From a bacterium (GTDB taxonomy: Bacteria; Patescibacteriota; Minisyncoccia; Phycocordibacterales; UBA2100), in assembly GCA_016789445.1 (NCBI GenBank), contig JAEUQT010000002.1, forward strand, positions 138,321-202,320: DNA of 64,000 nt, read 5' to 3'. A program made the translations under genes and the position numbers. This document shows positions 17,289 through 52,285 of this stretch, piece by piece. Each line of letters begins with the position of its first letter. The first letter of the stretch is position 1. The notes beneath the pieces are model-generated. The model was not told the DNA's origin, searched no databases, and saw only the letters and a program-made list of their open reading frames with translations.

Positions 17289-18749
17289 ATGAATCTCACA
17301 TCGCGCAATCCGTTCGTAGTATTACTCGCCTCCTTCATGCTCGCAGTGCTTTTTTCGTCACCGAGCCTCGCGCTCGCTCAGGCTGAAATGGTTCGGTATG
17401 ACGAGGAGAACCCGCTTCCGCCTGAAATGCTCGAGCTTGAGGAGGGGGTTTTGGACGGGGAAACTGAAACGCCAGCTCCTGCGGGGACAGTCTCGTGCTT
17501 TGATCACTACACATTCGGCTCCGTGCAAGCGCAGCTGACCCCGTCGGTCGCAAATACGGTTTCCGGCACAGCGGTCACGTTCTCCGGCTCCGTCATAAAC
17601 GACAATCCGTATCCGATCGTCGACGGCGCGCTCTATGTGAAGGTCTTCAAGTCGCGTGGAAGCGAGAACGACGGCAACGGTCCTGATGTCGTCGACCAGT
17701 TCTTCGCAAAGGGAGACATCGTCATCCCTGCGAAGGGTAGCGCCCCGATCTCGTTCCAGTGGCGCGTCCCGAGCTATGCGCTCTCCGGTGAGTACGAACT
17801 CGCGACATACTTCGTCTCTTCACGAAAGTTCAATCTCCTCGGACTCTCGTTCACTGATGACGTCGTGGGGAATACCATCCCATTCACCGTCTCCGGTGAA
17901 ATGACCACCGGCGTCAAGTTTGATAAGGCGGGAGTCACGATCAATGGTGAAGACTACTACTTCGCTGCGTTTCCTCCGCGTGTGAGCGCGACGTCTTCAG
18001 GCGTCGTATCAGCGACGCTCCGCAATACCACCAACACGACCCAGGCGGTAACGGTGCAGTGGACGGTCTATCAGTGGGACGGACTCCTGCGTGAGAACGT
18101 GGTGCAGGAGGAATCCCGCACCGTCACGGTTCCGGCGAATTCGTCCGCACAGGCGACGATTACCGTCACCGATACCAAGTATCCGGTCTACTACGTCGTC
18201 GGTACCGCGAAGTGGAAGGATACGCAGTCGGTGATCGGCGCTCGCTTCATACGAGAAGGCGTTGATCGAACCCGTATCAACTTCCCGGGTGTCTCATCGT
18301 TCCCGCTCAAGGCCGGGGAGATGAATACGCTCTTCTCGTGCTTGCACAATTCAGGCGAAGCTGCTGTCGTCTCCGGTGGCAGTCTCGATCTCACGATCCT
18401 CGATAGGGACGGTAACCCGATCCATCAGTACACATATAAAGGAGATGTGACCGGAGATATGATGGGTGTCGCATCAGCGTTCACGCCGACGAAGAATTAC
18501 GATTACTTCACCATTTCAGCGCGTCTCTTCCAGGGAGATCAATTCGTCGACGAAGCGAACTTGGTCTATGACTGTCAGGCGATCGATCCATCGCTCTGCT
18601 TGCCGGCCGCTGCGGCAGGTAGCGGTATGCTCGGCTCGATGCAATCCCTTGCGGTCATCGCGCTCGGCATCATCGTCCTCATCGGTGCTATCTGGATCTA
18701 TCGTCGCGTAAGCCGTACGCCGAACACCACCCAGCTCCCGCCGATGTAA
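17289..18749 (+). CDS. hypothetical secreted protein with C-terminal TM anchor
   Basis: The ORF-track start at 17241 overlaps the upstream gene, so ATG 17289 (MNLTSRNPFVVLLASFMLAVLF) is preferred. Signal peptide present. The C-terminus is ..CLPAAAAGSGMLG, then a hydrophobic helix, then YRRVSR. Confidence 0.5.
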   Translation: MNLTSRNPFVVLLASFMLAVLFSSPSLALAQAEMVRYDEENPLPPEMLELEEGVLDGETETPAPAGTVSCFDHYTFGSVQAQLTPSVANTVSGTAVTFSGSVINDNPYPIVDGALYVKVFKSRGSENDGNGPDVVDQFFAKGDIVIPAKGSAPISFQWRVPSYALSGEYELATYFVSSRKFNLLGLSFTDDVVGNTIPFTVSGEMTTGVKFDKAGVTINGEDYYFAAFPPRVSATSSGVVSATLRNTTNTTQAVTVQWTVYQWDGLLRENVVQEESRTVTVPANSSAQATITVTDTKYPVYYVVGTAKWKDTQSVIGARFIREGVDRTRINFPGVSSFPLKAGEMNTLFSCLHNSGEAAVVSGGSLDLTILDRDGNPIHQYTYKGDVTGDMMGVASAFTPTKNYDYFTISARLFQGDQFVDEANLVYDCQAIDPSLCLPAAAAGSGMLGSMQSLAVIALGIIVLIGAIWIYRRVSRTPNTTQLPPM

Positions 18750-40017: not shown

Positions 40018-42039
40018 ATGGCTGAAAAGAAAAGCTCCTACGGAGCCGCTGATATTACTGTCTTGGAAGGTCTGGAAGCGGTCCGTCGCCGACCGGGTAT
40101 GTACATCGGTACGACCGGTCTCGACGGCCTCCACCACCTCATCTGGGAGATTTTCGACAACTCACGCGACGAAGCGATGGGTGGATTCGCCAATGATATC
40201 GAAGTCGCGCTCCTTCCCGACAATGTCATCCGTGTCGTGGACAACGGCCGCGGTATTCCGGTCGATATCCATCCGAAGACGAAGGTCTCCGCGCTCGATA
40301 CCATCATGACCACGCTCCATGCAGGCGGTAAGTTCGGCGGTGAAGGATACAAGGTGTCCGGCGGTCTCCACGGTGTCGGCGCATCGGTGGTGAACGCGCT
40401 TTCGACCTATGCACGCGTGGAAGTCCACCGTGAGGGCGGACAGCACGTCCAGGAATACAAGAACGGTGGTAAGGCGGTGGGTAAGGTGAAGAAGATCGGC
40501 AGCTCGAAGCGCACCGGTACCATCACGCTTTTCCGTGCCGATCCTTCGATCTTCCCGGTCATCGAATACAGCTATGATCGCATCGTCGGTCACTTGCGCC
40601 AGCAGGCGTATCTCGTGAAGGGTCTGCGCATCACGATACTCGATTTGCGCGATAAGAAGGAAGTCGATCATGAGTCGGCGTACTACCTACGCGAGCTCGG
40701 TCTCGATGCGCCATCCACCACCTTCTACTTCGAAGGAGGTCTCAAGTCGCTGGTCTCATTCCAGAATCGTCACCAGACGGCAGTCCACAAGAATGTCTTC
40801 TATGTCGAGAAAGAGCAGGATGATGTGAACGTGGAAGTCTCGCTCCAGTATGTGGACGATATCTCCTCGCGCATCACCGCATTCGCGAACAATATCTATA
40901 ACGCGGAAGGCGGTACGCACATCACCGGTTTCAAGACCGCACTCACGCGAACCCTGAACAACGCTTCGAAGGGCGGCGGAGGTAAGGAAGGTGAATCGTT
41001 CACGGGCGACGATGTCTTGGAAGGTCTCACGGCCGTGGTCTCGGTGAAGCTCCGCGAGATCCAGTTCGAAGGCCAGACCAAGGGCAAGCTCGGTTCCGTC
41101 GAGGCACGTGGTGCGACCGAAACCGTTTTCGCGGAAGCATTCGCGCAGTTCTTGGAAGAGCATCCGGACGACATGCGTGCCATCCTCGGCAAGGCGACGC
41201 TCGCGATGAAGGCACGTAAGGCTGCTAAGGCCGCGAAGGAATCCGTGCTGCGTAAAGGTGCGCTCGAAGGCCTCTCGCTCCCGGGCAAGCTTGCCGACTG
41301 TCAGGTGCGCAATCCTGAAGAAGCAGAACTCTTCGTCGTCGAGGGAGATTCGGCAGGTGGTACGGCCAAGATGGGTCGTGATCGCCGCACACAGGCCATC
41401 CTCCCGCTCCGCGGCAAGATCCTCAACGTCGAACGCGCGCGTCTCGATAAGATGCTCGTCTCCGAACAGATCCGCAATCTCGTGATCGCGCTCGGTACGG
41501 CGATCGGAGATGTCTTCGATGTCTCGAAGCTCCGCTACCACAAGCTCATCATCGCGACCGATGCAGACGTCGACGGCGCGCACATCCGCACGCTGCTCCT
41601 CACGCTCCTGTATCGTCATTTCCGTCCGGTCGTCGATGGCGGCTTCCTCTATATCGCCCAGCCGCCGCTCTACAAGATCAAGAAAGGGAAGGAGGTTTTC
41701 TATGCATACACCGAGGAGGAGAAGATCGACATCGCCGGCAAGGATGCGCAGCTCGAGACGGAAGACGAGGTCGTAGAAGAAGGCGAAGAAGAAGCGCCTG
41801 AGGTAAAGGCGAAACGTGCAACGAAGATCTCCGTCCAGCGCTACAAGGGTCTCGGCGAGATGAATGCGGAGGAATTGTGGGAGACCACGATGGATCCGGC
41901 TCGTCGTGTCTTGAAGCTCGTCACCATCGAGGATGCCACCGATGCCGACCGCACCTTCGATATCCTCATGGGTACCGACGTCCCGTCACGCAAGACTTTT
42001 ATCCAGTCGCACGCCAAGGAAGCGACGTTGGACATCTAG
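40018..42039 (+). CDS. gyrB: DNA gyrase subunit B
   Basis: GHKL ATPase motifs (LHHLIWEIFDNSRDEA, GLHGVGASVVNALS). Toprim (EGDSAGG). C-terminal ..KTFIQSHAKEATLDI. TATAAT 11 nt upstream. Confidence 0.85.
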   Translation: MAEKKSSYGAADITVLEGLEAVRRRPGMYIGTTGLDGLHHLIWEIFDNSRDEAMGGFANDIEVALLPDNVIRVVDNGRGIPVDIHPKTKVSALDTIMTTLHAGGKFGGEGYKVSGGLHGVGASVVNALSTYARVEVHREGGQHVQEYKNGGKAVGKVKKIGSSKRTGTITLFRADPSIFPVIEYSYDRIVGHLRQQAYLVKGLRITILDLRDKKEVDHESAYYLRELGLDAPSTTFYFEGGLKSLVSFQNRHQTAVHKNVFYVEKEQDDVNVEVSLQYVDDISSRITAFANNIYNAEGGTHITGFKTALTRTLNNASKGGGGKEGESFTGDDVLEGLTAVVSVKLREIQFEGQTKGKLGSVEARGATETVFAEAFAQFLEEHPDDMRAILGKATLAMKARKAAKAAKESVLRKGALEGLSLPGKLADCQVRNPEEAELFVVEGDSAGGTAKMGRDRRTQAILPLRGKILNVERARLDKMLVSEQIRNLVIALGTAIGDVFDVSKLRYHKLIIATDADVDGAHIRTLLLTLLYRHFRPVVDGGFLYIAQPPLYKIKKGKEVFYAYTEEEKIDIAGKDAQLETEDEVVEEGEEEAPEVKAKRATKISVQRYKGLGEMNAEELWETTMDPARRVLKLVTIEDATDADRTFDILMGTDVPSRKTFIQSHAKEATLDI

Positions 42040-42059: not shown

Positions 42060-43247
42060 ATGGAAGGATACCGTCGGCGCGAATTTCGCAAAGAACCGGC
42101 AAGAAAGCCGGAGAAATTCGGTGGGCGCCAGAACTTCACGCGCGCGATGCTGCTTGCCGCGCTCGCCGCTTTCAATGCTCCTGAGACGGCAGACGCCCAG
42201 CAGATGCCACCCGGCACGAAGCGTGCGATCGAGCGTATTGATGAACGTTCTCACCGCAAAGCAGCACGTCATATCGAATCGACGGTGCCGCGAGCTGAAG
42301 AGCTCGCCGAGAACATCGAACTCATCGAAGCCAAGCTTGGTCCGGGGGGCGAATGGGCATCGTTACTCGAGGATCCCGCTACGCCGCGCGCGAAAGTCGA
42401 TGCGATCTTCCGTTATATCAATAAGGTGAATACGCATATCGACGTGATGCAGGTGATGCCGGAGGCGTTCAAGGATCAGCCTGCAGCACACGAGCGTATC
42501 GCGCCGCGCCGCGAACTCTTCCACGGCAGCGATCATCGGTCATTCAAGGCGTTTGATGCAGAAGGAAAACCGTATGAGAAGGTTTGTAACGGATATCATG
42601 TCGCTACCGGTGGCGCGAGATTCTTCGTCACCGCCAAACACTGCATCACCGGCACTGCACTTGAGGGAAGCTTCGCTGTTCCCGACGGGCATGCGAACGA
42701 TATTGCTGTGAAATATTTGCCGGGAGATCATGGCCCCGCTATGCAGCTCGATGGCCGTACCGATCGCGACTTTCAGGGGCGCATGGCGGTCATTCGCGGC
42801 ATCGACCGCTTCGGCAGGGATTTCCTTCGCACCTCGTTTCTTATCAAGATGTCACCGGCGCTACAGGAGAAGCTGTATGGCGTCGGCGATCGGCAGGTGG
42901 GTAATTTCGATCTCCGGGATCAGTTCATGCTGCTTGCGCAGCCCGGCGATGCGACTCTCATGCACGATCGTATGCTCTCAGCAAGCGGAGTTTCGGGAAC
43001 GGGTATCAAGGCGTGGATAGATGGAGGGTACCGCGCGCTAGGTCCGCAATCCTCGGGCCGCGTCTTTACGCCAGAACAGAGCGCATCCATTCCCCCTGAC
43101 CAGCAAATCGGTCTCAATTCACCGATGTTTTTCGTTGAAGGTCTCGATGTACTCAAGGAACTCTGCGAACGTGCGCGCCAGCAACATGAGCAACCAAAAC
43201 GCCCCCCAAAGGAGGCGTCTGGATTCATGCAGAGAATTGGAAACTAG
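42060..43247 (+). CDS. putative secreted trypsin-like (S1-fold) peptidase with atypical Ser motif
   Basis: Signal-peptide-like N-terminus. His motif TAKHC and Asp motif NDIAV, like chymotrypsin-fold proteases. The candidate nucleophile is in SGVSGTG instead of GDSGGP. Confidence 0.4.
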   Translation: MEGYRRREFRKEPARKPEKFGGRQNFTRAMLLAALAAFNAPETADAQQMPPGTKRAIERIDERSHRKAARHIESTVPRAEELAENIELIEAKLGPGGEWASLLEDPATPRAKVDAIFRYINKVNTHIDVMQVMPEAFKDQPAAHERIAPRRELFHGSDHRSFKAFDAEGKPYEKVCNGYHVATGGARFFVTAKHCITGTALEGSFAVPDGHANDIAVKYLPGDHGPAMQLDGRTDRDFQGRMAVIRGIDRFGRDFLRTSFLIKMSPALQEKLYGVGDRQVGNFDLRDQFMLLAQPGDATLMHDRMLSASGVSGTGIKAWIDGGYRALGPQSSGRVFTPEQSASIPPDQQIGLNSPMFFVEGLDVLKELCERARQQHEQPKRPPKEASGFMQRIGN

Positions 43248-44227
43248 TACACGTACGGCGCGTAGTAGCCGGTCCAGCTCGGGCCGTTTACGAACATCGC
43301 TGCCGTGTTATTGCCTTCGTTCGTTTCGCTGACCGCGTAGCCGTTGTCGACGCTGACCGTGATTGTCCCGCCGCCTGCCATGAGTGGCTTGAAGCGCAAG
43401 GTATTGAGGACGTGCGAGCCCGGAGTCAGGTTCGCTTGCACTGGCGACTGGTAGAGATAGCCGCCCTGCATCGGGAGGTTCACCGAGAACGAATAGTTGC
43501 CGGTGGAGCCGGTGCCGGTGTTCGCGATGTCGAACTGGACCGCGGCGATCTCTTCAGGACCGACTGGGTAGCGGTTCTCGAAGTTACCTGTCATTGGATT
43601 GATGACGCCGACCGCCACGATGCGCACGCTGAGATCAGGTGTTCCCGCCGGACGTGGTGCAGTCGGAGTCGTTGCCGCCGGAGCAGTCGGTGTAGTTGCG
43701 GTTGGTGTCGAAGTCGCACCTGTCTTCGCAAGGACGCGGACGGTTGCCGTGCCCTGTGGGCGCGTAGTGTTTTCCGTCGAGGTTGCCGCAGGGATGAAGA
43801 CGATCGAGACCGGCACATCCATCGTGGTGGTGCCCGCAAGAACCGGAACGAGGGAGAGGGAAGTGGAAGTGCCGACGGTGTAGGCGCTACCGCATGGGAT
43901 CGCGCTTGCACGGCCGTTCGCGCTCGCCATATCGAAGCGGAAGCCGGTCTTGCACTGATAGAGGAACGAATATGCGCCCGCTTCCTTGGCGTTGTACTTC
44001 CACGAGATCGGGAATGCAGTGCCCGACTGTGTCTCTTTCGGCAAGGTGATAGCGATCGAATCCCCGCCGCCGAAGCGCGAGAACAGCGATGTTACTCCCG
44101 AGCCGGTAAGGCGAAGAAGGTGATACGCTCCCCAGACGATCACGATGATAAGGATGATAAAGCCGGCGACCGCGAGTATGTTCGCGAGGATCCCCGGATT
44201 CTGCTGCCCCTGAGGTGAATCGCTCAT
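43244..44227 (-). CDS. hypothetical type-II membrane / surface protein with Thr-Pro linker
   Basis: N-terminal TM helix. TTPTAPAATTPTAPRPAGTP linker. Beta-rich C-terminal domain. Confidence 0.5.
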   Translation of the reverse strand: MSDSPQGQQNPGILANILAVAGFIILIIVIVWGAYHLLRLTGSGVTSLFSRFGGGDSIAITLPKETQSGTAFPISWKYNAKEAGAYSFLYQCKTGFRFDMASANGRASAIPCGSAYTVGTSTSLSLVPVLAGTTTMDVPVSIVFIPAATSTENTTRPQGTATVRVLAKTGATSTPTATTPTAPAATTPTAPRPAGTPDLSVRIVAVGVINPMTGNFENRYPVGPEEIAAVQFDIANTGTGSTGNYSFSVNLPMQGGYLYQSPVQANLTPGSHVLNTLRFKPLMAGGGTITVSVDNGYAVSETNEGNNTAAMFVNGPSWTGYYAPYVY

Positions 44228-44293: not shown

Positions 44294-44578
44294 GTGAATC
44301 CCGTTAGAGATGACGGTAGTTGGTATACGTACGTGCTCCGTAGTCTAAGAGATGGAGAAACATACACCGGCTTCACCAACGATTTGCGGAAGCGCTTCAA
44401 GCAGCATAACGACGGGCTCACGTCTTCAACCAAGGGACGTCGTCCCTTTGAGCTGATATATTACGAAATGTGTAGAAACGAGAGTGACGCACGGTCGAGA
44501 GAATTATTTCTAAAATCTGGCATGGGTAAACGCTATTTGCGAAATCGCTTGAAGCGCTTCCTATCTCTAACGGGATGA
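44294..44578 (+). CDS. small GIY-YIG nuclease-family protein (YhbQ/UPF0213-like)
   Basis: WYTYVLRS..GETYTGFTNDLRKRFKQHN...G..R.FELIYYE. GTG start inside the left TIR. The TGA stop overlaps the sortase ATG (ATGA). Confidence 0.7.
   Translation: MNPVRDDGSWYTYVLRSLRDGETYTGFTNDLRKRFKQHNDGLTSSTKGRRPFELIYYEMCRNESDARSRELFLKSGMGKRYLRNRLKRFLSLTG
44298..44576 (+). mobile_element. TIR-bounded GIY-YIG mini-element (candidate autonomous copy)
   Basis: A perfect 14-bp inverted repeat, ATCCCGTTAGAGAT (44298-44311) and ATCTCTAACGGGAT (44563-44576), exactly brackets a 94-aa GIY-YIG ORF. Related TIR pairs without an ORF occur at 61114/61219 and 63872/63941. Confidence 0.55.
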
Positions 44579-45219
44579 AAACCGCACATTCCAAGCCTCC
44601 GATGAGTGTCTTTCTGGCGGCGACCGTCGTCATCTTCTTCCTCGCGCTCTCCGCAGCCGACTCCGTCGGCTTCGTTCCGTATTACATCGACGGCACACCG
44701 CCGCGACCGAAGGTTACGGTCGAAAGTCTTGCGGAAATCCCGCAGGAGGAAGTCGCTCTTCCCGAAGAAGAGGAAGTCGGTGTCGCGCCGACGCGCATCC
44801 GTATCCCGGCGATCGATCTCGATCTTCCGGTACTCAATCCGCAGACCCGCGACATCGCGGCGCTCGATGCGGTACTCAAAGACGGCCCTGCACGCTACAT
44901 GGATTCCGCCCTGCTTGGCGAGAAGGGCAATGTCTTGATCTTCGGTCATTCTTCGCATCTGCCGGTCGTACACAACCAGATGTACAAGGCGTTCAACCGT
45001 GTGCCGGACCTCAAAGAGGGCGACACCATCGAAGTCGAGGGTGGCGGAAAGGTCTACACGTACCGCGTCCTCGGCGTGAAGGGCGTCGATGCGGAAGAAG
45101 GCATCATCGATCTTTCCCGAGAGGGGAATCGCCTCACGATCGTCACCTGCGACACGCTCACCGCCAAGACCGCCCGCTTCGTCCTCGACGCCGAACTCAT
45201 CGGTTCCTACGATCTCTAA
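44575..45219 (+). CDS. sortase-family transpeptidase
   Basis: N-terminal TM helix. Catalytic His context LIFGHS, Cys in LTIVTCD (the TLxTC motif), and a downstream Arg (TARFVLDAEL). Confidence 0.75.
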   Translation: MKTAHSKPPMSVFLAATVVIFFLALSAADSVGFVPYYIDGTPPRPKVTVESLAEIPQEEVALPEEEEVGVAPTRIRIPAIDLDLPVLNPQTRDIAALDAVLKDGPARYMDSALLGEKGNVLIFGHSSHLPVVHNQMYKAFNRVPDLKEGDTIEVEGGGKVYTYRVLGVKGVDAEEGIIDLSREGNRLTIVTCDTLTAKTARFVLDAELIGSYDL

Positions 45220-45295
45220 CGTTCTTGACGCCTTCATAGGTGCGGAGCATAGTTGCGGCGGCTCAGTTCTCGGGCCTCAACGAAGGAGGAAATAC

Positions 45296-45730
45296 ATGCG
45301 TGTAAGCGCATCACTCATCCGATATCTCAGTCCGCTCATCCTCGGCGCGCTTCTGGGTCTCATGTTCTGGCTCGCGCCGGATATCACGCCGCAAAAGATG
45401 GGGGCTGAGACCCCAGACCAGGCGGTCGTCCTCATGGGCGGGTTCTTCGTCATCTTCTGGATCTATCTTCAGATCCAGGGATATCCGATCTCGCATGGCG
45501 ATATCGGGACGGCGAGCTCGCACACGATCGACAACATCATGTCGTTCATCCCGGCGCTGACGGCGCTCTTCGGCCTTGCGCTCACGATGTTCAATTTCTG
45601 GGAGCTTTCCCAGCTCAACATCGCGCTGGCTGTCATGACGCTCGGCATCGTCTGGATCGATTTGTGGATCTACGGCGGGTCGGCTTCGAAGATCAACCGG
45701 CTGACTGACGAGATCAAAGCGGAACGGTAG
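45296..45730 (+). CDS. hypothetical polytopic membrane protein
   Basis: Four predicted TM helices. SD AAGGAGGA 6 nt upstream. The track ORF start at 45089 overlaps the sortase gene. Confidence 0.5.
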   Translation: MRVSASLIRYLSPLILGALLGLMFWLAPDITPQKMGAETPDQAVVLMGGFFVIFWIYLQIQGYPISHGDIGTASSHTIDNIMSFIPALTALFGLALTMFNFWELSQLNIALAVMTLGIVWIDLWIYGGSASKINRLTDEIKAER

Positions 45731-45902
45731 GGGAATCGGATCTAAGAAAGAGGCGGGCAGCCATTGTCCGCCTCTTGACTTTTGGTCAAAATGTGATAGC
45801 ATATCTCCCAGAGGGTCCTGAATGCCGATTTGGGCGCTTAAACAGTCCCTAAATCGGCCTTCGGGACAATCCGAACTGGTCTTTAACTTAACCGGAGGGA
45901 GA

Positions 45903-46427
45903 ATGAGAAAACCCCCCGAAGAAATCGTCTATACGGAAGGAAACGGCTTTGAACCAATTCGGGACAATGTCGTTGTCTTCCCAAAACGACCGAAAGGAGA
46001 CGAAAGCATGAGTGATGATCATGGAAAAGGACATGGTCACGATCATGGCGGTCACGGAAAAAAGGAGGCAGGACTAATGCCAGACCTTAAAAAAGTTGGT
46101 CTCGGAGTATTAGCGGCGATTCTCGGCTTGTATGCAATCAGATTTATCATCATTCCGATGATAGGCGGTATTGCATGTGATCTGACGGGTAACGTCGGTT
46201 GCCAAGTAGCGGCGAAAATGAATGAGCAGCAAACTATGTCTGCGGATTCATCGGCCCCTTTCTCGGTAAATCGCGAAATCCGTCGTCGAGAGGGCGGTCC
46301 AGTAGGACCTGCCCGCCGTCAGCAAGGACGGCAAGGGCTGATGCCAAGCGTCGACTGTGCCGCGATGGGGGGTATCCGGACGACAAATCCGAATACCGGA
46401 ATGCCATCGTGCTTCGTTCCCAACTGA
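45903..46427 (+). CDS. His-rich membrane protein with conserved C-terminal Cys module
   Basis: HGKGHGHDHGGHGKK, then a TM helix, then C-terminal MPSVDCAAMGGIRTTNPNTGMPSCFVPN. This C-terminus is shared with the 46557 product. The start is uncertain (45822, 45903 or 46009). 45903 and 46009 both have an SD. Confidence 0.5.
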   Translation: MRKPPEEIVYTEGNGFEPIRDNVVVFPKRPKGDESMSDDHGKGHGHDHGGHGKKEAGLMPDLKKVGLGVLAAILGLYAIRFIIIPMIGGIACDLTGNVGCQVAAKMNEQQTMSADSSAPFSVNREIRRREGGPVGPARRQQGRQGLMPSVDCAAMGGIRTTNPNTGMPSCFVPN

Positions 46428-46430
46428 CTA

Positions 46431-46465
46431 TTCCGGAAGCGTTGCATAACGCATCGCTTCCGGAA
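46431..46465 (+). terminator. hairpin, possible terminator
   Basis: Perfect 11-bp stem TTCCGGAAGCG/CGCTTCCGGAA with a 13-nt loop. The downstream T-tract is weak. Confidence 0.35.
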
Positions 46466-46556
46466 ACTTCTTCTTACGAGTACCTGCCTCTGTTCGAGAT
46501 TTCGCACACGGACAGGTCTTCATAAGACCACTGATCATTCAAAAGGAGGACTTCCG

Positions 46557-46961
46557 ATGAGGAAGATTCTGATCGCTCTCGTCGCGTTCATGTCGCTGCC
46601 GGTCGCTCAGGCCACGGCAGAGTCCATTTACTATGGACGTCAGAGTCCGGATCAAATACGCGTTCGCGTAGGCAGTCCGGAGCACAGCGTGAGGGTAAGC
46701 GTGCCTTTCCCTCACATCAGCCACAACAACGGCTGCCGTGGACCTCGCTGCGGATATCCGCGGCGACATGTCCATGGTCCTGGTTGCGGTCACTCGATTC
46801 GTCGAGCGTCCTGCGGCCAAGGAGGAGGTTGTGCGCAAGCTCGTCCGATCGCGCGTCCGGTGCAAGGCTATATGCCGACCATCGACTGCGAGAAGGCGGG
46901 CGGCATCCGTACGGTCAATCCGAATACGGGTGCGCCGACATGTTTCGTGCCGAATCAGTGA
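46557..46961 (+). CDS. secreted His/Cys-rich protein with conserved C-terminal Cys module
   Basis: Signal peptide. Cys/His-rich middle (CRGPRCGYPRRHVHGPGCGH). C-terminal MPTIDCEKAGGIRTVNPNTGAPTCFVPNQ. Confidence 0.55.
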   Translation: MRKILIALVAFMSLPVAQATAESIYYGRQSPDQIRVRVGSPEHSVRVSVPFPHISHNNGCRGPRCGYPRRHVHGPGCGHSIRRASCGQGGGCAQARPIARPVQGYMPTIDCEKAGGIRTVNPNTGAPTCFVPNQ

Positions 46962-46967
46962 GCAAAA

Positions 46968-47008
46968 GGGCGGGTTCAGTCTCAAGACTGACCCGCCCTT
47001 ACTTTTTA
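46968..47008 (+). terminator. Rho-independent terminator
   Basis: GGGCGGGTTCAGTCT-CAAG-ACTGACCCGCCC followed by TTACTTTTTA. Confidence 0.6.
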
Positions 47009-47078
47009 GAGGTATTGACAAGCGATTAATAGTGTGATACACTATATCCAGTCAAGCTCATTGATTAGGAGAAAGCCA

Positions 47079-47345
47079 ATGAAGGCAATTTCTAAAATCC
47101 TCGCAGTTGCTCTGCTCGCAGCGTCCGCTTCTTCGGCCTCGGCCTTCGTCAAGCACGACCCTGGTGTCACGTATGAGGACATCAAGGCCTGCCTCGAGAA
47201 CATCGGTCTGGAAGAAGGAACTCATTTTCGCAAGAAGAAGGGTTCCGATGACACGATCGAATTGAATCGTGGCCAGGTCGCCGGCGACAGCTACGACTTT
47301 AAACAGGTCGATGGCTGCTGGAAGAAGCAGACGGTGTCCAAGTAG
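47079..47345 (+). CDS. small secreted protein (2 Cys)
   Basis: Signal peptide (MKAISKILAVALLAASASSASA). SD AGGAGAAAG upstream. The track ORF start at 47034 is in-frame upstream. Confidence 0.5.
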   Translation: MKAISKILAVALLAASASSASAFVKHDPGVTYEDIKACLENIGLEEGTHFRKKKGSDDTIELNRGQVAGDSYDFKQVDGCWKKQTVSK

Positions 47346-47362
47346 GACAAATAACGGGGTAA

Positions 47363-47396
47363 TGGGGCGGTCTCTCAACGAGAGCCGCCCCTTTTC
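47363..47396 (+). terminator. Rho-independent terminator
   Basis: GGGGCGGTCTC-TCAACGA-GAGCCGCCCC followed by TTTTCT. Confidence 0.6.
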
Positions 47397-47402
47397 TATG
47401 CT

Positions 47403-47431
47403 CTTGACTTTTTGACAAAGGGAGGTTATAA
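47403..47431 (+). promoter_or_regulatory. sigma70-like promoter TTGACT-17-TATAAT
   Basis: Near-consensus hexamers with 17-nt spacing. It drives the 47498 gene with a ~60-nt leader. Confidence 0.55.
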
Positions 47432-47497
47432 TGTTCCAAGCAATTAGATCTCCTTATTAACCGGCATTTATTGGCTTACTAAAAGAAAAAATAACTT

Positions 47498-48805
47498 ATG
47501 AACTCGACTTCAACGCGTTCGCAGATCGTTCTCGGTCTTCTCGTTGGTTTCGTTGTGTTCGCAGGTCCGTCTGCGGTCCAGGCTGCCGATCTTGGTGGCT
47601 GGGGCTGGAGCGATTACGGTTCCTACGACAGTTGGTCTGATTACGGCTCGTACGATACGTGGAGCGACTATGGTTCGTATGATACCTGGTCTGATTACGG
47701 TTCTTACGACACGTGGTCTGACTACGGTTCGTATGGCTCCGGCACGTACTACGACGACGGGTATTACTACGACGATGTAGCTGGTACGTACTATGACGAT
47801 GTCTATGGTACTTACTACGACGATTCGTACGGCACCTATTACGATGATTCGTACGGTTCATACTACGATGACTCGTATTACTACGGTGGTGGTTCCTACG
47901 ACTACGGTTGTGGTTCCTCGTGCGGCGGCTCGTGGTACACGCCTTCGTACTCGACTGGTTGCGGTTCGTGGTGCGGCACCGGCGGCGGACAGTATGTCAC
48001 CCCCCGCTTCACGGCTCCGAGCTCTTCGTACACGAACATCGTGACGAACAATGTCGACAACTCGCAGGACAACGACAACTACAACTACATCACGAACATC
48101 GACAACTCGATCCGTGACAGCTTCAACAACTACAATAGCGGCAACACCTCTATCGTAGTCACTGCTCCTCAGACGCCGGTTCACACGACTCCTGCTCCGT
48201 ACTGCACGATCACGCATGCACAGTACGGTGGCTATGGTTCGGGTGCGTATCTCTCGTGGACTTCCACGAACGCATCGAGCGCATACCTCTCGAACGTCGG
48301 TTCTGTCGCAGTCTCGGGTTCCCAGACCGTCTACGCGCATGGCTCGCAGACGTACACGCTCACGGTCTACGGTTACAACGGTCAGACGGCAACGTGCGCA
48401 ACCTCGGTCTACGGCCAGGTCTACGTTCCTCCGACCTATAACCCTCCGTACGTGTCCCTTACGCAGATCCCGTACACTGGTTTCGACTTCGGTCCTATCG
48501 GTAACGCGATGTACTGGGTCTCGCTTCTTGGATTCGCAGCAGCAGGTGCCTACCTCATGATCTACTATCGTGGTGGTGCGCTTGCCTTCGCAACCGCAAT
48601 GGTTCCGGCACGTAAGTTCGCTCCGGTCGTTGCTCCGAAGGCTCCGATCCTCGTTGAGCGTGAAGCACTTGCGCTCTCGCACGATGAAGTGAAGGTCCAG
48701 CCGATCGTTGCATCTCTTCGCAAGGCAGCCGGTACTCTCGATACGATGGCAATCGTTTCCTCGAAAGATGGTTCGATGCCGCGCATCGTGATCCAGCGTG
48801 CTTAA
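47498..48805 (+). CDS. secreted Tyr/Asp-rich tandem-repeat surface protein with C-terminal IPYTG + TM segment
   Basis: Signal peptide. Five 27-nt SDYGSYDTW repeats and YYDDSYG(T/S) repeats (47611-47900). Beta-rich domain shared with the 49032 product. LTQIPYTGFD, then a hydrophobic helix, then YYRGG, then an ~80-aa tail. Confidence 0.65.
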   Translation: MNSTSTRSQIVLGLLVGFVVFAGPSAVQAADLGGWGWSDYGSYDSWSDYGSYDTWSDYGSYDTWSDYGSYDTWSDYGSYGSGTYYDDGYYYDDVAGTYYDDVYGTYYDDSYGTYYDDSYGSYYDDSYYYGGGSYDYGCGSSCGGSWYTPSYSTGCGSWCGTGGGQYVTPRFTAPSSSYTNIVTNNVDNSQDNDNYNYITNIDNSIRDSFNNYNSGNTSIVVTAPQTPVHTTPAPYCTITHAQYGGYGSGAYLSWTSTNASSAYLSNVGSVAVSGSQTVYAHGSQTYTLTVYGYNGQTATCATSVYGQVYVPPTYNPPYVSLTQIPYTGFDFGPIGNAMYWVSLLGFAAAGAYLMIYYRGGALAFATAMVPARKFAPVVAPKAPILVEREALALSHDEVKVQPIVASLRKAAGTLDTMAIVSSKDGSMPRIVIQRA

Positions 48806-48893
48806 ACGGGGGTGGGCCCCGTTTAAGAGCCGGACTGAGCGAAGGCGAAGGAGGCGGGGTCGCGCAATTTGCCAGCAGGCAAATATGGGTGAC
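48806..48893 (+). repeat. conserved intergenic structured element, family 1, copy C
   Basis: GGGGGTGGGCCCCG...GGAGGCGGGGTCGCGCAA, then a hairpin at 48863-48889 (TTTGCC/GGCAAA, AGCAG loop), then TGAC. More diverged than copies A and B. Confidence 0.6.
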
Positions 48894-49031
48894 TAAGGAG
48901 AGTGCTAAGGAAGGACGGGCAAAGCTCCAAAAGTGAACCGCATGGCCCGTCGCGAATAGCGATGGGCCATGCTGGTAGAGGGGAGGGAAATGTACTATAA
49001 AGCTGATACGTTAACCGATTACTAAATCTAT

Positions 49032-49907
49032 ATGCAGAACGCAAAAAATTCTGTTTCCAAGCTCTTTGTGGGTCTCGCGCTTTTCAGTGTCGTTCTCTCC
49101 GGCGTGCCGGCAGTCGCCGCTGCAAGCCACTCGAACTACGATGAGGAGGCTTCGTGCTGGATCTCGGCATCTCCGAGCTCGGTCTACGAAGGCGGTTCGA
49201 CAACCCTCACGTGGGGATCGCGCAACGCGGATGACGCGTGGATCGATGATATCGGCGATGTAGGAACCCACGGTTCCCGCATTATTTACGGTATCGATGA
49301 GGACACGACGTTCAAGCTTACTGTGGAGAATGACGAGGGCACCGCGACCTGTGAGACGGATGTCGAGGTCCGTTCCTACAACCACCACTCCGGTTCGACG
49401 AAGGCTCCGGGCTGCACCATCTATCGTCAGGAGACGAATGGTTCTGCAGTCGTCCTCCGCTGGAATTCGACGGACGCATCGTCTGCGTACCTCTCGGGCG
49501 TTGGCTCGGTATCGACCTTCGGTCAGTACACGGTCTACCCGACGTATGACACGACCTACACGCTCACGGTCTACGGCAACGGAAAGTCCGAGAGCTGTGA
49601 GATCGAAATCGACCGCGGCTACAGCACGTACTATCCGCAGAACTACAATCACTACAACAACTACGGCAACCAGTACGGTTATAACTACAACTATCCGTAC
49701 ATCTCACTGACCCAGATCCCGTACACGGGTTTTGATCTCGGTGTCGTCGGCACTGCGGTGTACTTCCTCGCGCTCGCACTCTTCGCGATCGCAGGTGCGT
49801 ATCTTCTCGCGTACTACCAGGGTGGCGTCCTTCGCTTCTCGTTCGCACAGGAAGTGAAGCTTGCTGCTCGCAATCAGGTTCGCGCAATCCGTAACTTCTT
49901 CAATTAA
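49032..49907 (+). CDS. secreted surface protein, paralogue of 47498 product, C-terminal IPYTG + TM
   Basis: Signal peptide. The shared domain is ...ASSAYLSGVGSV...YTLTVYG.... The C-terminus is ISLTQIPYTGFDLG, then a hydrophobic helix, then YYQGG, then a basic tail. Confidence 0.65.
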   Translation: MQNAKNSVSKLFVGLALFSVVLSGVPAVAAASHSNYDEEASCWISASPSSVYEGGSTTLTWGSRNADDAWIDDIGDVGTHGSRIIYGIDEDTTFKLTVENDEGTATCETDVEVRSYNHHSGSTKAPGCTIYRQETNGSAVVLRWNSTDASSAYLSGVGSVSTFGQYTVYPTYDTTYTLTVYGNGKSESCEIEIDRGYSTYYPQNYNHYNNYGNQYGYNYNYPYISLTQIPYTGFDLGVVGTAVYFLALALFAIAGAYLLAYYQGGVLRFSFAQEVKLAARNQVRAIRNFFN

Positions 49908-49954: not shown

Positions 49955-51724
49955 TTAGGCGCGGTCTTTGATTTCTTCGAGAAGGGAGGATTTGAATTCC
50001 TCAAACGGCTGTGCACCGATCTTTCCTTTATCGCGGCTCTCCACGGCGACGGTTCCCGCGTCGACTTCCGCATCGCCCATGACGAGTACGTAGGGGACTT
50101 TCTCGGTCTTCGCGTTGCGGATCTTCTTGCCGAGCGATTCGTTCGCCGCGTCGACTTCGACGCGCACGCCTGCCTCGCGCAATTCAGCAGAGATCTTCTC
50201 CGCGTATTCGACATGCTTCTCAGAGATAGGAAGGACTTTCACCTGAACGGGTGAAAGCCAGGTAGGGAAGGCGCCGCCGAAATGCTCGATCATCACGCCC
50301 ATAAAGCGTTCAAGCGATCCAGAGATCGCTCGATGGATAACAACAGGACGCTCTTTTTCACCTTTATCATTGATGAATGAGAGATCAAATCTCTCCGGGA
50401 GGTTGAAGTCGCATTGTATGGTTGCCAACTGCCACTCACGACCGATTGCATCTTTAAACATAAAATCCAATTTCGGACCATAGAAGGCAGCCTCTCCCTC
50501 CACACGAGTGTAGGGAAGATTATTCTTTTTTGCTGCATTCTCTAATGCTTCCTCGGCTCTGTTCCAGATATCATCGCTGCCGAGATATTGGCCTTCTGGG
50601 CCCCGAACGGAGAAGCGCACCCAATATCCTTCAATCATGCGCATGGTGGAGTAGAAATCGCGGATGATACCGACGATCGTGGAGACCTCTTCGTCTATCT
50701 GCGATATGCGGCAAAAAAGATGACCGTCATCTTGAGTGATCGCGCGTACGCGAGTCAGGCCCGCCAATTGACCAGTCTTCTCATCGCGATATACGGTCGC
50801 TGGTTCAAAGTAACGCACAGGCATATCGCGGTAGGAGAACTGATTATCAGCAAAAATCTGCATGTGATGCGGGCAGTTCATGGGCTTCAGGAAGAATTTC
50901 TCATCCTTACCGTTTACTCTAAACAACTCATCTCCGAATTTCGCCGCATGTCCTGAAGTCACATACAGATCTTCTTTTGCGAGATGGGGTGTCCAGACAC
51001 GTGAATAGCCCTTCTTTGCGTGAAGCTCCCACAGATATTCCTCCAGTTCGCGACGGATAATGGCACCGTTTGGCATGAGGAGGGGGAGACCGGAGCCGAC
51101 AAGGGGAGAAAGCGTGAAAATCTTGAGGGCGGGACCGAGTTTCTTGTGGTCGCGTTTCTCAGCCTCGGCTTGCTGAGCGAGATATGCATCAAGCTCTTCC
51201 TTGGTGTCGAAAGCTAGACCGTAGATGCGGGTGAGCATCGGATTATTCTCGCTGCCGCGCCAATAGGCGCCTGCAATCCTTTCAAGCTTGAAGGAATCAG
51301 CGTCGATATCTTCTGCAGGATTATCGGCGTGTCCGCCGCGACACAAATCAGTGAATCCGCCGCAGGAATACAACGTTATCGGTTCGCCGCGGGCTTTGAT
51401 CTCCTTTATCAGTTCCGCTTTGTACGGATTGGTACCGTTCGGTCCCGAGAAATGACCGTACGCTTCGTCAGCCGCGACTGTTTTGTGCGAGAAGGAGGTC
51501 CACTTCTTCAGATTCTCCTTCATTCGGTCCTCGATTTCCTGCAGGTCCTGGCTCGACGGCTTCCGGTCTCCACCGAAATCGATGTCGTAATAGAACCCAT
51601 TATCGATCGCAGGTCCTATCGCCAAAAGCGGCTGCGCACCGTCTTTGCCATATATTTCAAGCACTGCCTGTGCGAGAAGGTGAGCAAGGGTATGCCGAAT
51701 ATGTTCAATGTTCTTGAGCGACAT
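49955..51724 (-). CDS. thrS: threonine--tRNA ligase (lacks N-terminal TGS domain)
   Basis: The second N-terminal domain begins at IRHTLAHLLAQAV..GPAIDNGFYYD. Class II core (FRVNGKDEKFFLKPMNCPHH). C-terminal anticodon-binding domain. The track ORF extends to 52144, but that extension has no similarity and overlaps a + strand ORF with an SD, so ATG 51724 is the preferred start. Confidence 0.75.
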   Translation of the reverse strand: MSLKNIEHIRHTLAHLLAQAVLEIYGKDGAQPLLAIGPAIDNGFYYDIDFGGDRKPSSQDLQEIEDRMKENLKKWTSFSHKTVAADEAYGHFSGPNGTNPYKAELIKEIKARGEPITLYSCGGFTDLCRGGHADNPAEDIDADSFKLERIAGAYWRGSENNPMLTRIYGLAFDTKEELDAYLAQQAEAEKRDHKKLGPALKIFTLSPLVGSGLPLLMPNGAIIRRELEEYLWELHAKKGYSRVWTPHLAKEDLYVTSGHAAKFGDELFRVNGKDEKFFLKPMNCPHHMQIFADNQFSYRDMPVRYFEPATVYRDEKTGQLAGLTRVRAITQDDGHLFCRISQIDEEVSTIVGIIRDFYSTMRMIEGYWVRFSVRGPEGQYLGSDDIWNRAEEALENAAKKNNLPYTRVEGEAAFYGPKLDFMFKDAIGREWQLATIQCDFNLPERFDLSFINDKGEKERPVVIHRAISGSLERFMGVMIEHFGGAFPTWLSPVQVKVLPISEKHVEYAEKISAELREAGVRVEVDAANESLGKKIRNAKTEKVPYVLVMGDAEVDAGTVAVESRDKGKIGAQPFEEFKSSLLEEIKDRA

Positions 51725-51853
51725 TTCACGAATAGTACAGTTATGTTGGCTTTGAGCAAAGCTACAACAGGGAATTGACAAATAAACATATTTGTCACAG
51801 AGTAATTTTAGGAGGCGAATTCCTCGCTTCTGGAAGGTAAAGGAAGAAAGTGC

Positions 51854-52285
51854 ATGAGTTCTTTTCAACAGGTCCGCGGAGCGGATTTTAAGCCGGTCGT
51901 GAACGATGCTGCGCTGCAGTATCACAACGACAGCGTCGTTGCTCGCCTCGTTGAGCATGACGGCCTCACTCCTGATGAGGCAAGGGTTCTTTTTAAGGAC
52001 ACCTTGAAATTTCTGGCACTCACCGATAGTGGCGTGAAGTTGGCCCCGCCGGCAAAGATCGATCTCGGGTGGCACAACTTCATCCTCCACACCCGCGACT
52101 ATGCTGATTTCTGTCAGCAATGTTTCGGCCACTTCATCCATCATGAGCCCGGCAGCGGACTCACGTATACCGGCCCCAAGCTGGACGTTGAAGGCACTGT
52201 CGCTTTCGCAAAGAAGGCATACGGTGAGCTATCGTCCAACTGGGACAACACGCGCGGCTTGACCTGCGGCTCGAACGGCTGCTAA
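51854..52285 (+). CDS. hypothetical protein
   Basis: 143-aa ORF. SD AAAGGAAG 8 nt upstream. Terminator-like hairpin downstream. No motif. Confidence 0.45.
   Translation: MSSFQQVRGADFKPVVNDAALQYHNDSVVARLVEHDGLTPDEARVLFKDTLKFLALTDSGVKLAPPAKIDLGWHNFILHTRDYADFCQQCFGHFIHHEPGSGLTYTGPKLDVEGTVAFAKKAYGELSSNWDNTRGLTCGSNGC

What the first reader, a model, noticed from the sequence alone, without database searches (positions are those of the whole stretch)
44575..49907. Sortase locus with candidate non-canonical sorting signal IPYTG on two Tyr/Asp-rich surface proteins
A membrane-anchored sortase (TLxTC as LTIVTCD, with His and Arg in place) lies 2.3 kb upstream of two paralogous secreted proteins. Both carry the identical segment LTQIPYTGFD followed by a hydrophobic helix and then YY(R/Q)GG plus a basic stretch. 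IPYTG fits the (L/I)PxTG pattern. The signal is not at the extreme C-terminus in the 47498 product, which has an ~80-aa tail after the TM helix. That may indicate a variant mechanism. The 17289 product ends with LPAAAAG-TM-YRRVSR, a second candidate. The intervening small His/Cys-rich secreted proteins are co-oriented and could be part of the same surface-assembly system.
Basis: partly seen in the sequence, partly recalled or inferred. Interest (0 to 1): 0.6.

Follow-up and report, generated by a model that had tools for sequence, protein, structure and literature searches.

The report
Patescibacterial sortase with PYTG anchor proteins
A tiny uncultured bacterium (Kaiserbacteria group) keeps a sortase enzyme next to surface proteins carrying a strictly conserved "IPYTG" tag before a membrane helix. 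This tag is probably a lineage-specific form of the classic LPXTG cell-wall anchoring signal, and unusually it is followed by a long, conserved tail on the inner side of the membrane.

Summary
A membrane-anchored sortase (44575-45219) lies 2.3 kb upstream of two paralogous secreted proteins (47498-48805 and 49032-49907). Both contain SLTQIPYTGFD, then a membrane helix, then YY(R/Q)GG.

- **Motif conservation:** [I/V]PYTG sits in a roughly 25-residue conserved block. A profile of this block hits about 1000 protein clusters (50% identity level).
- **Link to the sortase:** PYTG is the only recurrent sortase-like signal near 80 related sortase genes. 39 of 43 sortase loci with enough flank have a PYTG protein downstream. 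In a second lineage, 20 of 20 PYTG loci have the sortase 1.3-3.3 kb upstream. Some relatives carry the motif in a textbook layout of motif, helix and basic tail.
- **What is unusual:** Ile at position 1 is not new, since IPQTG is a known signal. The unusual parts are the near-invariant Tyr, the conserved flanks, and a conserved cytoplasmic tail of about 60-130 residues, usually ending in …DGxxPRIVIxR.
- **Sortase class:** it fits none of classes A-F.
- **Rejected claims:** the LPAAAAG candidate is not conserved. The small His/Cys-rich genes are lineage-specific and not part of a system.
- **Caveat:** the whole gyrB…thrS-dnaE neighbourhood is conserved, so the adjacency is only suggestive. Cleavage has not been tested.

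I rate this a new variant of a known kind.

The parts
44575..45219 (+). Sortase, 214 aa. N-terminal TM anchor at about residues 11-27, a conserved SxGFVPYYIDG segment, and a catalytic domain at about 73-213 with His125 (nt 44947), Cys192 in LTIVTCD (nt 45148) and Arg201 (nt 45175).
   Evidence: Pfam PF04203, E 8.7e-21. TIGR01076 scores 48.6 against a cutoff of 39.35, but every class A-F model is below its cutoff. Conserved residues are shown. The AF2 model has a sortase barrel with pLDDT 75.5. Foldseek matches class A, C and E sortases about equally well.
47498..48805 (+). PYTG protein 1 (435 aa), long-tail type. Signal peptide 47498-47584. Tyr/Asp-rich repeats at about 47606-47877. Ig-like domain 48200-48412. 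IPYTG 48467-48481. TM helix 48494-48565. Cytoplasmic tail 48566-48802, ending in DGSMPRIVIQRA.
   Evidence: The C-terminal ...D[ST]M...DGxxP[RK]IVIxR end is shared by 104 of 141 cluster representatives.
49032..49907 (+). PYTG protein 2 (291 aa), short-tail type. Signal peptide, two Ig-like repeats, IPYTG 49716-49730, TM helix at about 49752-49817, and a conserved 29-aa tail (QGGVLRFSFAQEVKLAARNQVRAIRNFFN).
   Evidence: The tail is conserved across 53 homologues.
43244..44227 (-). Membrane-anchored protein with a CARDB domain, transcribed divergently from the sortase. It is a conserved neighbour with no PYTG motif.
   Evidence: Pfam CARDB, E 1.9e-8. It is found about 0.7-1.0 kb upstream of the sortase in most of the 80 + 50 related loci.
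45296..45730 (+). 144-aa polytopic membrane protein just downstream of the sortase. It is lineage-specific and probably co-transcribed with the sortase. It is not a core component.
   Evidence: Homologues occur in only 3 of 138 loci in an iterated HMM search. No family hits.
45748..45776 (+). Terminator-like hairpin (13-bp stem followed by a T-run) after the sortase/membrane-protein pair.
   Evidence: This is a consensus scan only.
45822..46961 (+). Two small paralogous proteins (45822-46427 and 46557-46961) that share a C-terminal DCxxxGGIRTxNPNTGxPxCFVPN motif. They are variable filler genes and not part of the system.
   Evidence: 71% identity over 31 aa. The motif is found in only 1 other locus, L072, of 138.
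47404..47432 (+). Sigma-70-like promoter match (11 of 12 positions) upstream of PYTG protein 1. It suggests these genes are transcribed separately from the sortase.
   Evidence: This is a consensus scan only.

Best explanation
The locus encodes the housekeeping-type sortase of a Kaiserbacteria/Paceibacteria lineage (Patescibacteria) together with its probable substrates.

**Substrate layout.** The substrates are type I surface proteins built as follows:
- a signal peptide;
- a variable, often disordered Tyr/Asp/Asn-rich stalk and Ig-like domains;
- a conserved block PYV(S/A)L(S/T)Q-[I/V]PYTG-(F/L)D(F/L)GPxGNAxYW;
- a TM helix;
- a cytoplasmic tail.

**Inferred mechanism.** This is by analogy with LPXTG sorting.
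1. After Sec export the TM helix and tail hold the protein in the membrane.
2. The extracytoplasmic sortase, through Cys192, cleaves between Thr and Gly of [I/V]PYTG, which lies in an unstructured linker about 4 residues before the helix.
3. The sortase transfers the ectodomain to a cell-wall (lipid II / peptidoglycan) amine.
4. A stub remains in the membrane: G-FDxGxxGN, the TM helix and the tail.

**Shown here:**
- the identity of the sortase and its catalytic residues;
- the motif, its position and its extreme conservation;
- the genomic association of the sortase with PYTG genes;
- the existence of canonical-format PYTG signals in relatives.

**Inferred, not shown:** the cleavage itself, the acceptor, and any role for the conserved tail.
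For: 1. The sortase is real and catalytically complete.
2. The core xPxTG sits in an unstructured linker directly before the TM helix. The protein has an N-terminal signal peptide, so the topology matches that of sortase substrates.
3. The pattern of constraint resembles a sortase site. 113 of 120 homologues keep [LIVMAT]PYTG. Position 1 varies among I, V, A, L, T and M. One lineage has IPQTG, a known sortase signal (PMC5640630).
4. In 80 sortase loci a permissive [..]P.[TSA][GASN]+TM scan gives IPYTG 62 times and every other pentapeptide at most twice. Across 1.73 Mb of related DNA, PYTG is the only recurrent C-terminal tripartite signal.
5. 39 of 43 sortase loci with at least 8 kb of downstream sequence carry a PYTG gene on the same strand. 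In the V/A-PYTG lineage, 20 of 20 loci with at least 3 kb of upstream sequence carry the sortase 1.3-3.3 kb upstream.
6. Extra PYTG genes have been placed next to the sortase independently. Six loci have a 500-900-aa PYTG protein ending about 150 bp upstream of the sortase. L061 and L046 carry additional copies.
7. Relatives with the same Ig-like passenger domains carry xPYTG in a canonical layout of motif, TM helix and basic tail ending the protein. Examples are P0041 ...VPYTGPEDTAY-TM-HTKLRRRS, P0059/P0082 ...MPYTGP-TM-RNRAVVLG, L046 and L061.
8. The window encodes a protein with a peptidoglycan-binding domain, consistent with the organism having a wall to anchor to.
Against: - The whole neighbourhood gyrB - CARDB - sortase - ... 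- PYTG - thrS - dnaE is conserved in both lineages. Adjacency may therefore reflect inherited gene order rather than a functional link.
- The signal fails one defining feature of LPXTG signals. In place of a short basic tail that is discarded, there are conserved cytoplasmic tails. There is also conservation 7 residues upstream and 16 residues downstream of the pentapeptide, which cleavage alone does not explain.
- No curated LPXTG-anchor or other sorting-domain model matches.
- The promoter-like and terminator-like sites suggest the sortase and the PYTG genes are separate transcription units.
- A genome-wide co-occurrence test could not be run.
- There is no biochemical evidence for any Patescibacteria sortase in the searched literature.
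Confidence: 0.6

Rival explanations
1. The PYTG block, TM helix and tail form an uncleaved membrane-anchoring and cytoplasmic-interaction domain of a Patescibacteria surface-protein family. PYTG would be a structural juxtamembrane motif. The neighbouring sortase would act on other substrates, or its proximity would simply be inherited gene order.
For: - Conservation extends well beyond the pentapeptide, from -7 to +16, with Tyr at X in 98% of modules.
- The cytoplasmic tails are conserved. 104 of 141 representatives end in P[RK]hhhxR, and the short-tail type keeps ...LRFSFAQEVxxAARNQ.... This is unexpected for a fragment that is discarded.
- The entire gyrB...dnaE backbone is syntenic.
- No LPXTG-anchor model matches.
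- One PYTG gene (L004/L005) has no sortase within 10 kb.
Against: - The motif matches the sortase core xPxTG exactly, at the correct distance from a TM helix and in a disordered linker.
- Position 1 varies as it does in known sortase signals, and IPQTG occurs in one lineage.
- Relatives with canonical short basic tails exist.
- No alternative sortase-type motif recurs anywhere in 1.73 Mb of related sequence.
- Extra PYTG genes have been recruited next to the sortase.
Confidence: 0.27
2. The sortase is a pilus-polymerising enzyme of the class C type and the PYTG proteins are pilin subunits joined head-to-tail through Lys isopeptide bonds.
For: - The best sequence match among solved structures is a class C sortase (8t28, E 6.9e-9).
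- I/V at position 1 is typical of pilin signals.
- The sortase is clustered with its putative substrates.
- The passengers are Ig-like domains.
Against: - The ectodomain of the 435-aa protein contains no lysine at all, and no extracellular Lys is invariant in the family. There is therefore no pilin-motif nucleophile.
- The class C model scores 37.8 bits against a cutoff of 160.
- Foldseek does not prefer class C over class A or E.
- No confident lid was predicted.
Confidence: 0.05
3. The motif is a chance similarity within two recent paralogues.
For: Within the window the two copies are paralogues, so the shared 11-mer alone is a single evolutionary observation.
Against: The module is found in about 1004 clusters at the 50% identity level, 485 of them at E <= 1e-10. 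There are 323 distinct module sequences, and 98% have Tyr at X.
Confidence: 0.01

Closest known systems
LPXTG cell-wall sorting signal with a housekeeping sortase (SrtA of Firmicutes; class E LAXTG of Actinobacteria)
   Same: An N-in membrane-anchored Cys transpeptidase with a His-Cys-Arg triad. Substrates with an N-terminal signal peptide, an xPxTG pentapeptide, a TM helix and a positively charged start to the tail. There appears to be one sortase per genome region serving several substrates.
   Different: - The sortase is below the cutoffs of every class A-F model.
- The X position is fixed as Tyr.
- About 25 residues around the motif are conserved.
- The post-TM tail is conserved, and the motif lies mostly 100-130 residues before the C-terminus. 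In the standard signal the tail is about 5-10 basic residues.
- The organism is an ultra-small Patescibacterium.
Class C sortase pilin signals (S. pneumoniae RrgB IPQTG, RrgC VPDTG, RrgA YPRTG; PMC5640630)
   Same: Ile or Val at position 1 of the pentapeptide. The sortase gene is clustered with its substrate genes. The passenger domains are Ig-like.
   Different: There is no pilin-motif lysine, and the ectodomain of the 435-aa protein has none at all. No lid was detected. The class C model is not met.
C-peptide signalling by cleaved LPXTG sorting signals (S. gordonii, as cited in PMC11502775)
   Same: The membrane stub left after sortase cleavage can have a function of its own, such as interacting with a membrane sensor. 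This is a precedent for a conserved post-cleavage fragment.
   Different: In the known case the stub is a short TM peptide acting through a histidine kinase. Here the stub would carry a 30-100-residue conserved cytoplasmic tail with its own C-terminal motif, and no kinase is linked to the locus.
Other tripartite C-terminal sorting domains (PEP-CTERM/exosortase, PGF-CTERM/archaeosortase, GlyGly-CTERM/rhombosortase, MYXO-CTERM/myxosortase)
   Same: The logic of a short signature motif, a TM helix and a basic cluster paired with a dedicated processing enzyme. These families were discovered by in-silico co-occurrence.
   Different: Different enzymes and motifs are involved. No NCBIfam model of these families matches. 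In those families the signal lies at the extreme C-terminus.

Membership tests
Sortase superfamily (PF04203 / TIGR01076) | Domain match above the curated cutoff | tested here: met
   PF04203 scores 74.4 bits against 26.6. TIGR01076 scores 48.6 against 39.35.
Sortase superfamily (PF04203 / TIGR01076) | Catalytic His, the Cys of a TLxTC-like motif, and Arg, all conserved | tested here: met
   Across 121 homologues, His125 and Arg201 are invariant and Cys192 (LTIVTCD) is conserved in at least 90%.
Sortase superfamily (PF04203 / TIGR01076) | Eight-stranded beta-barrel sortase fold | tested here: met
   AF2 model with pLDDT 75.5. Foldseek gives E about 1e-10 to solved sortases, with TM-score (normalised to target length) of 0.7-0.8.
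Sortase superfamily (PF04203 / TIGR01076) | Transpeptidase activity on a sorting motif | not testable with these tools
   Requires biochemistry.
Sortase classes A-F (NCBIfam NF0337xx) | Score above the class-specific cutoff | tested here: not met
   Class E 42.9 against 160; class C 37.8 against 160; class D 32.7 against 165; class F 27.5 against 166; class GN 29.2 against 158. No class A model was among the seven NCBIfam families that matched at E <= 0.1. The structural search does not discriminate among classes A, C and E.
LPXTG-type cell-wall sorting signal | Pentapeptide [LIVY]PxTG | tested here: met
   IPYTG is present in both window proteins. 113 of 120 homologues keep [LIVMAT]PYTG.
LPXTG-type cell-wall sorting signal | Hydrophobic membrane-spanning segment shortly after the motif | tested here: met
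   The TM helix runs 333-356 and the motif ends at residue 328. The same arrangement is seen in 323 module sequences.
LPXTG-type cell-wall sorting signal | Short positively charged tail at the extreme C-terminus | tested here: not met
   The conserved tails are 79 aa and 29 aa in the window proteins. In most representatives the motif lies 100-130 residues before the C-terminus. The feature is met only in some relatives: P0041, P0059, L046 and L061.
LPXTG-type cell-wall sorting signal | N-terminal signal peptide | tested here: met
   Read from the sequence: hydrophobic core plus VQA|AD and AVA|AA sites. AF2 predicts an N-terminal helix at residues 7-21. No dedicated signal-peptide predictor was run.
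LPXTG-type cell-wall sorting signal | Match to a curated LPXTG-anchor model | tested here: not met
   No NCBIfam or Pfam hit at E <= 0.1 for either protein.
LPXTG-type cell-wall sorting signal | Cleavage between Thr and Gly, with amide linkage to peptidoglycan | not testable with these tools
   Needs a peptide cleavage assay or mass spectrometry.
Sortase-assembled pilins (class C systems) | Conserved pilin-motif lysine in the substrate | tested here: not met
   There are 0 Lys in the 299-residue ectodomain of the 435-aa protein. No extracellular Lys appears among the invariant or near-invariant columns.
Sortase-assembled pilins (class C systems) | A lid segment occluding the sortase active site | tested here: inconclusive
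   The conserved N-terminal GFVPYYIDG segment has pLDDT of about 56 in the AF2 model and no docked conformation could be assessed.

The most novel reading that the evidence does not exclude
The PYTG module may be a dual-purpose sorting signal. Sortase would cleave at Thr|Gly and anchor the ectodomain. The conserved stub that remains (GFDxGxxGN, the TM helix, a 30-100-residue cytoplasmic tail, and the ...DGxxPRIVIxR end) would then have a function of its own. It might report or gate surface-protein anchoring, or tether the sorting site to a cytoplasmic partner. An alternative form of this reading is that the tail controls whether and where cleavage happens. Either would be a mode of sortase biology not described in Firmicutes or Actinobacteria, and it would be specific to a large clade of Patescibacteria.
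Probability: 0.3. Interest if true: 0.75.

Novelty: new variant of a known kind. Interest (0 to 1): 0.55.

Why it matters
Patescibacteria (the Candidate Phyla Radiation) make up a large share of bacterial diversity and live attached to, or dependent on, other cells. How they build their surface is almost unknown.

- **A testable route to the surface proteome.** A lineage-specific sortase paired with a recognisable, near-invariant tag gives a sequence rule ([I/V]PYTG, then GxxGN, then a TM helix). The rule can be used to list the anchored proteins of these organisms from genomes alone. A profile of the module already picks up about 1000 protein clusters.
- **A challenge to the textbook view.** The conserved cytoplasmic tail conflicts with the idea that everything after the TM helix of a sorting signal is disposable. 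It may point to coupling between surface anchoring and the cytoplasm.
- **A possible tool.** A sortase outside classes A-F with a Tyr-specific motif could be an orthogonal enzyme for protein ligation.
- **Gaps in curated resources.** Neither Pfam nor NCBIfam has a model for the module, and the sortase subfamily falls below every NCBIfam class model.

Tried and rejected
1. **Pseudo-substrate lid.** I asked whether the conserved sortase segment GFVPYYIDG, which resembles the substrate IPYTGFD, acts as a lid. AF2 gives this segment pLDDT of about 56, so nothing can be concluded.
2. **Sortase class from structure.** Foldseek and sequence searches against solved structures rank class A, C and E sortases about equally. 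No class could be assigned.
3. **Passenger and tail fold.** The AF2 model of the 435-aa protein is confident only for the Ig-like domain and the TM helix. Foldseek returns only generic Ig/PKD/SoxY-like sandwiches at E > 1e-3. The C-terminal hairpin is predicted with low confidence.
4. **LPAAAAG as a second signal.** Rejected, because it is not conserved among 120 homologues.
5. **Intervening genes as system parts.** Rejected for the small Cys-motif proteins (1 of 138 loci) and for the 144-aa membrane protein (3 of 138 loci).
6. **Context of P0355.** The contig is only 1.7 kb and is uninformative.
7. **Literature.** Searches for IPYTG/VPYTG/LPYTG, sortase + Kaiserbacteria, and sortase + CPR + LPXTG found nothing relevant.
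8. **Passenger diversity.** Pfam scans of ten large PYTG proteins gave only weak, sub-threshold Ig-like hits.
9. **Genome-wide phylogenetic profile of sortase against PYTG.** Not possible, because only +/-10 kb around matches is retrievable.

Full report
**1. What is in the window**

Homologues are named Candidatus Kaiserbacteria, Paceibacterota, Minisyncoccia or Patescibacteria. The window therefore comes from an ultra-small CPR bacterium. One window protein is 100% identical to an NCBI MAG protein, JNK62_02680.

The genes run in this order:
- gyrB (40018-42039)
- a 395-aa protein
- a CARDB-domain membrane protein on the minus strand (43244-44227)
- a small GIY-YIG protein
- the sortase (44575-45219)
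- a 144-aa polytopic membrane protein (45296-45730)
- three small secreted or membrane proteins
- the two PYTG proteins (47498-48805 and 49032-49907)
- thrS and dnaE on the minus strand

**2.

*The sortase.*
- It matches Pfam Sortase (74.4 bits) and TIGR01076.
- It has an N-terminal TM anchor.
- In 121 homologues His125 and Arg201 are invariant, and Cys192 (LTIVTCD) is conserved in at least 90%.
- AF2 gives a sortase barrel with pLDDT 75.5. The model superposes on solved class A, C and E sortases about equally well.
- It falls far below the curated cutoffs of all class A-F models, the best being class E at 42.9 against 160. It is an unclassified sortase subfamily with at least 885 database relatives.

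*The two downstream proteins.*
- They are paralogues, 48% identical over about 155 aa.
- Each has a signal peptide and SLTQIPYTGFD followed by a TM helix and YY(R/Q)GG.
- AF2 of the 435-aa protein shows a signal helix and a disordered Tyr/Asp-rich region encoded by 24/27-nt repeats. It also shows one confident Ig-like sandwich (residues 235-305).
- IPYTG lies in an unstructured linker ending 4 residues before TM helix 333-356. A 79-residue tail follows, with a weakly predicted C-terminal beta-hairpin.

**3. The motif belongs to a large conserved module**

- Of 120 homologues of the 291-aa protein, 113 keep [LIVMAT]PYTG, and 100 of these have IPYTG.
- A 46-position profile of the module finds 1004 clusters (50% identity level) at E <= 1e-3, and 485 at E <= 1e-10. 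Of 141 new representatives, 138 have IPYTG and 3 have VPYTG.
- Over 323 distinct module sequences the consensus is PYV(S/A)L(S/T)Q-[I85/V11]-P-Y98-T-G-(F/L)-D-(F/L)-G-P-x-G-N-A-x-Y-W. P, T and G were fixed by that scan.
- In a sister lineage the block reads LS(Q/A)[V/A]PYTGL(E/D)LGPVGTALYW. One clade has IPQTG.

**4. The sequence after the TM helix is also conserved**

- A short-tail type, which includes the 291-aa protein, keeps YYxGGVLRFSFAQEVxxAARNQxR... (53 sequences).
- In the dominant long-tail type, which includes the 435-aa protein, the motif lies 100-130 residues before the C-terminus.
- The long-tail type keeps ...APKAPILVEKEA... and ends in ...D(S/T)MxIVxSKDGSMP(R/K)IVIxR. 104 of 141 representatives end in P[RK]hhhxR.
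- This is not how LPXTG signals normally look.

**5. Is PYTG the sortase's motif?**

*Evidence from sortase loci.* I fetched 80 loci around sortase homologues (44-71% identity) from species-representative genomes.
- A deliberately permissive scan for [LIVMATFYSQ]P.[TSA][GASN] followed by a TM helix gave IPYTG 62 times and every other pentapeptide at most twice.
- A scan of all 138 loci (1.73 Mb) for tripartite signals in the last 55 residues gave PYTG 11 times. Everything else was a singleton in a spurious ORF.
- 39 of 43 sortase loci with at least 8 kb downstream carry a PYTG gene on the same strand.

*Evidence from PYTG loci.* Starting from the V/A-PYTG module in metagenomes (50 loci), all 20 loci with at least 3 kb upstream contain the sortase 1.3-3.3 kb upstream.

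*The caveat.* The full backbone gyrB - CARDB - sortase - ... - PYTG - thrS - dnaE is conserved in both lineages. Adjacency is therefore confounded with inherited gene order.

*Two observations that go beyond inherited order.*
- Extra PYTG genes have been added next to the sortase. Six loci have a 500-900-aa protein ending about 150 bp upstream of the sortase, with ...IPYTG-TM-YSRGGAREMLAQAGLLRA. L061 and L046 carry further copies.
- Relatives with the same Ig-like passengers carry xPYTG in a textbook layout of motif, helix and basic tail ending the protein. Examples are P0041 VPYTGPEDTAY...HTKLRRRS, P0059/P0082 MPYTGP...RNRAVVLG, L046 LPYTG...YRLRLVG and L061 ...RRNRIFANVRGE.

*Relation to known signals.* Ile, Val or Tyr at position 1 is already known for class C substrates (IPQTG, VPDTG, YPRTG; PMC5640630). 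IPYTG is therefore within the known motif range.

**6. Most likely mechanism (confidence about 0.6)**

1. The protein is exported through Sec.
2. The TM helix and tail retain it in the membrane.
3. The sortase cleaves between Thr and Gly.
4. The ectodomain is transferred to a wall precursor. The window encodes a PG_binding_1 protein, consistent with a wall being present.
5. A conserved stub is left in the membrane.

Identity, topology, conservation and genomic association are shown. Cleavage, the acceptor and the role of the tail are inferred.

A pilin role is unlikely. The ectodomain of the 435-aa protein has no lysine at all, and no extracellular Lys is conserved.

The main rival (about 0.27) is that the module is an uncleaved anchor or cytoplasmic-interaction domain, and the sortase link is merely syntenic. 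The extended conservation and the conserved tails speak for this rival. The exact xPxTG geometry, the canonical-format relatives and the lack of any competing motif speak against it.

The two readings can be combined. The stub could have its own function after cleavage. A precedent is the C-peptide of streptococcal adhesins acting on a histidine kinase, as cited in PMC11502775.

**7.

- **LPAAAAG in the 17289 product.** It is present only in relatives that are at least 87% identical. More distant homologues have unrelated sequence there and conserve only the TM helix plus ...RRxxRxPNTTQLPPM. This is a plain TM anchor.
- **The small His/Cys-rich proteins.** They share a C-terminal DCxxxGGIRTxNPNTGxPxCFVPN motif, but this recurs in only 1 of 138 loci.
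- **The 144-aa membrane protein.** It recurs in 3 of 138 loci.
- The stretch between the sortase and the PYTG genes is a variable region, not a conserved assembly operon.
- A strong terminator-like hairpin (45748-45776) and an 11/12 promoter match (47404-47432) suggest separate transcription units. These are consensus matches only.

**8. Novelty**

Neither Pfam nor NCBIfam has a model that matches the module. The full-text library holds no paper on PYTG signals or on sortase specificity in CPR. One CPR paper mentions 'sortase motifs' only in passing (PMC5220378).

I rate this a new variant of a known kind. It pairs a lineage-specific sortase subfamily with an extended PYTG sorting module that has an atypical conserved cytoplasmic tail. 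Interest is 0.55. The case is solid and would be useful to specialists, but the surprising part, the function of the tail and whether cleavage occurs at all, remains untested.

Noticed in passing
window 81-10778 (+): A giant ORF of 3565 aa with no Pfam family at E <= 1e-4. It is presumably one of the very large surface proteins typical of CPR genomes.
   Followed up: partly
window 10803-11789 and 11793-12788 (+): Two tandem paralogues of the Beta-lactamase2 family (E about 1e-34 each), directly downstream of the giant ORF.
   Followed up: no
window 45822-46427 and 46557-46961 (+): Two small paralogous proteins share a C-terminal two-Cys motif, DCxxxGGIRTxNPNTGxPxCFVPN. The first also has a His/Gly-rich stretch (HGKGHGHDHGGHGKK). 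The motif recurs in only one other related locus (L072, about 9794).
   Followed up: partly
window 44294-44578 (+): A 94-aa stand-alone GIY-YIG nuclease-domain protein whose stop overlaps the sortase start codon by 4 nt. In related loci its homologue sits at varying positions (about -0.9 to -7.5 kb from the sortase end), which suggests a mobile or selfish element.
   Followed up: partly
window 44650-44700 (sortase residues about 26-40): The segment after the sortase TM helix, SxGFVPYYIDG, is conserved in 121 homologues (Ser30, Gly32, Val34 and Pro35 invariant; most of the rest at least 90%). It resembles the substrate motif IPYTGFD, so a lid or pseudo-substrate role is conceivable. AF2 confidence there is low (about 56).
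   Followed up: partly
L012 (10001-10654) and L020 (3474-4115): Some MAGs carry a second sortase paralogue of the same subfamily. It sits in a different context, among thioredoxin/DsbA-like secreted proteins with a heavy-metal-ATPase-like gene nearby. There is no PYTG gene and no gyrB/thrS synteny within 10 kb.
   Followed up: partly
window 47585-48481 (ectodomain of the 435-aa protein): The 299-residue mature ectodomain has no Lys and no Glu, but 52 Tyr, 43 Ser, 40 Gly and 28 Asp. It also has CGxxCG-like Cys pairs. This composition is extreme for a surface stalk.
   Followed up: no
window 17289-18749 (+) and homologues P0382-P0501: This surface-protein family conserves a C-terminal TM helix followed by YRRxxRxPNTTQLPPM in closer relatives. 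The cytoplasmic end is Pro-rich and of unknown meaning.
   Followed up: partly
L137 (89-196) and L138 (3450-3557): A sub-lineage has IPQTG instead of xPYTG in the same module. Its cytoplasmic tail is longer than in the other lineages, running on for more than 150 residues.
   Followed up: no
window 49955-52144 (-): The longest ORF for thrS is 729 aa, whereas the orthologues called in related loci are 409-414 aa. The true start is probably well downstream of the first ATG, or the N-terminal region differs.
   Followed up: no
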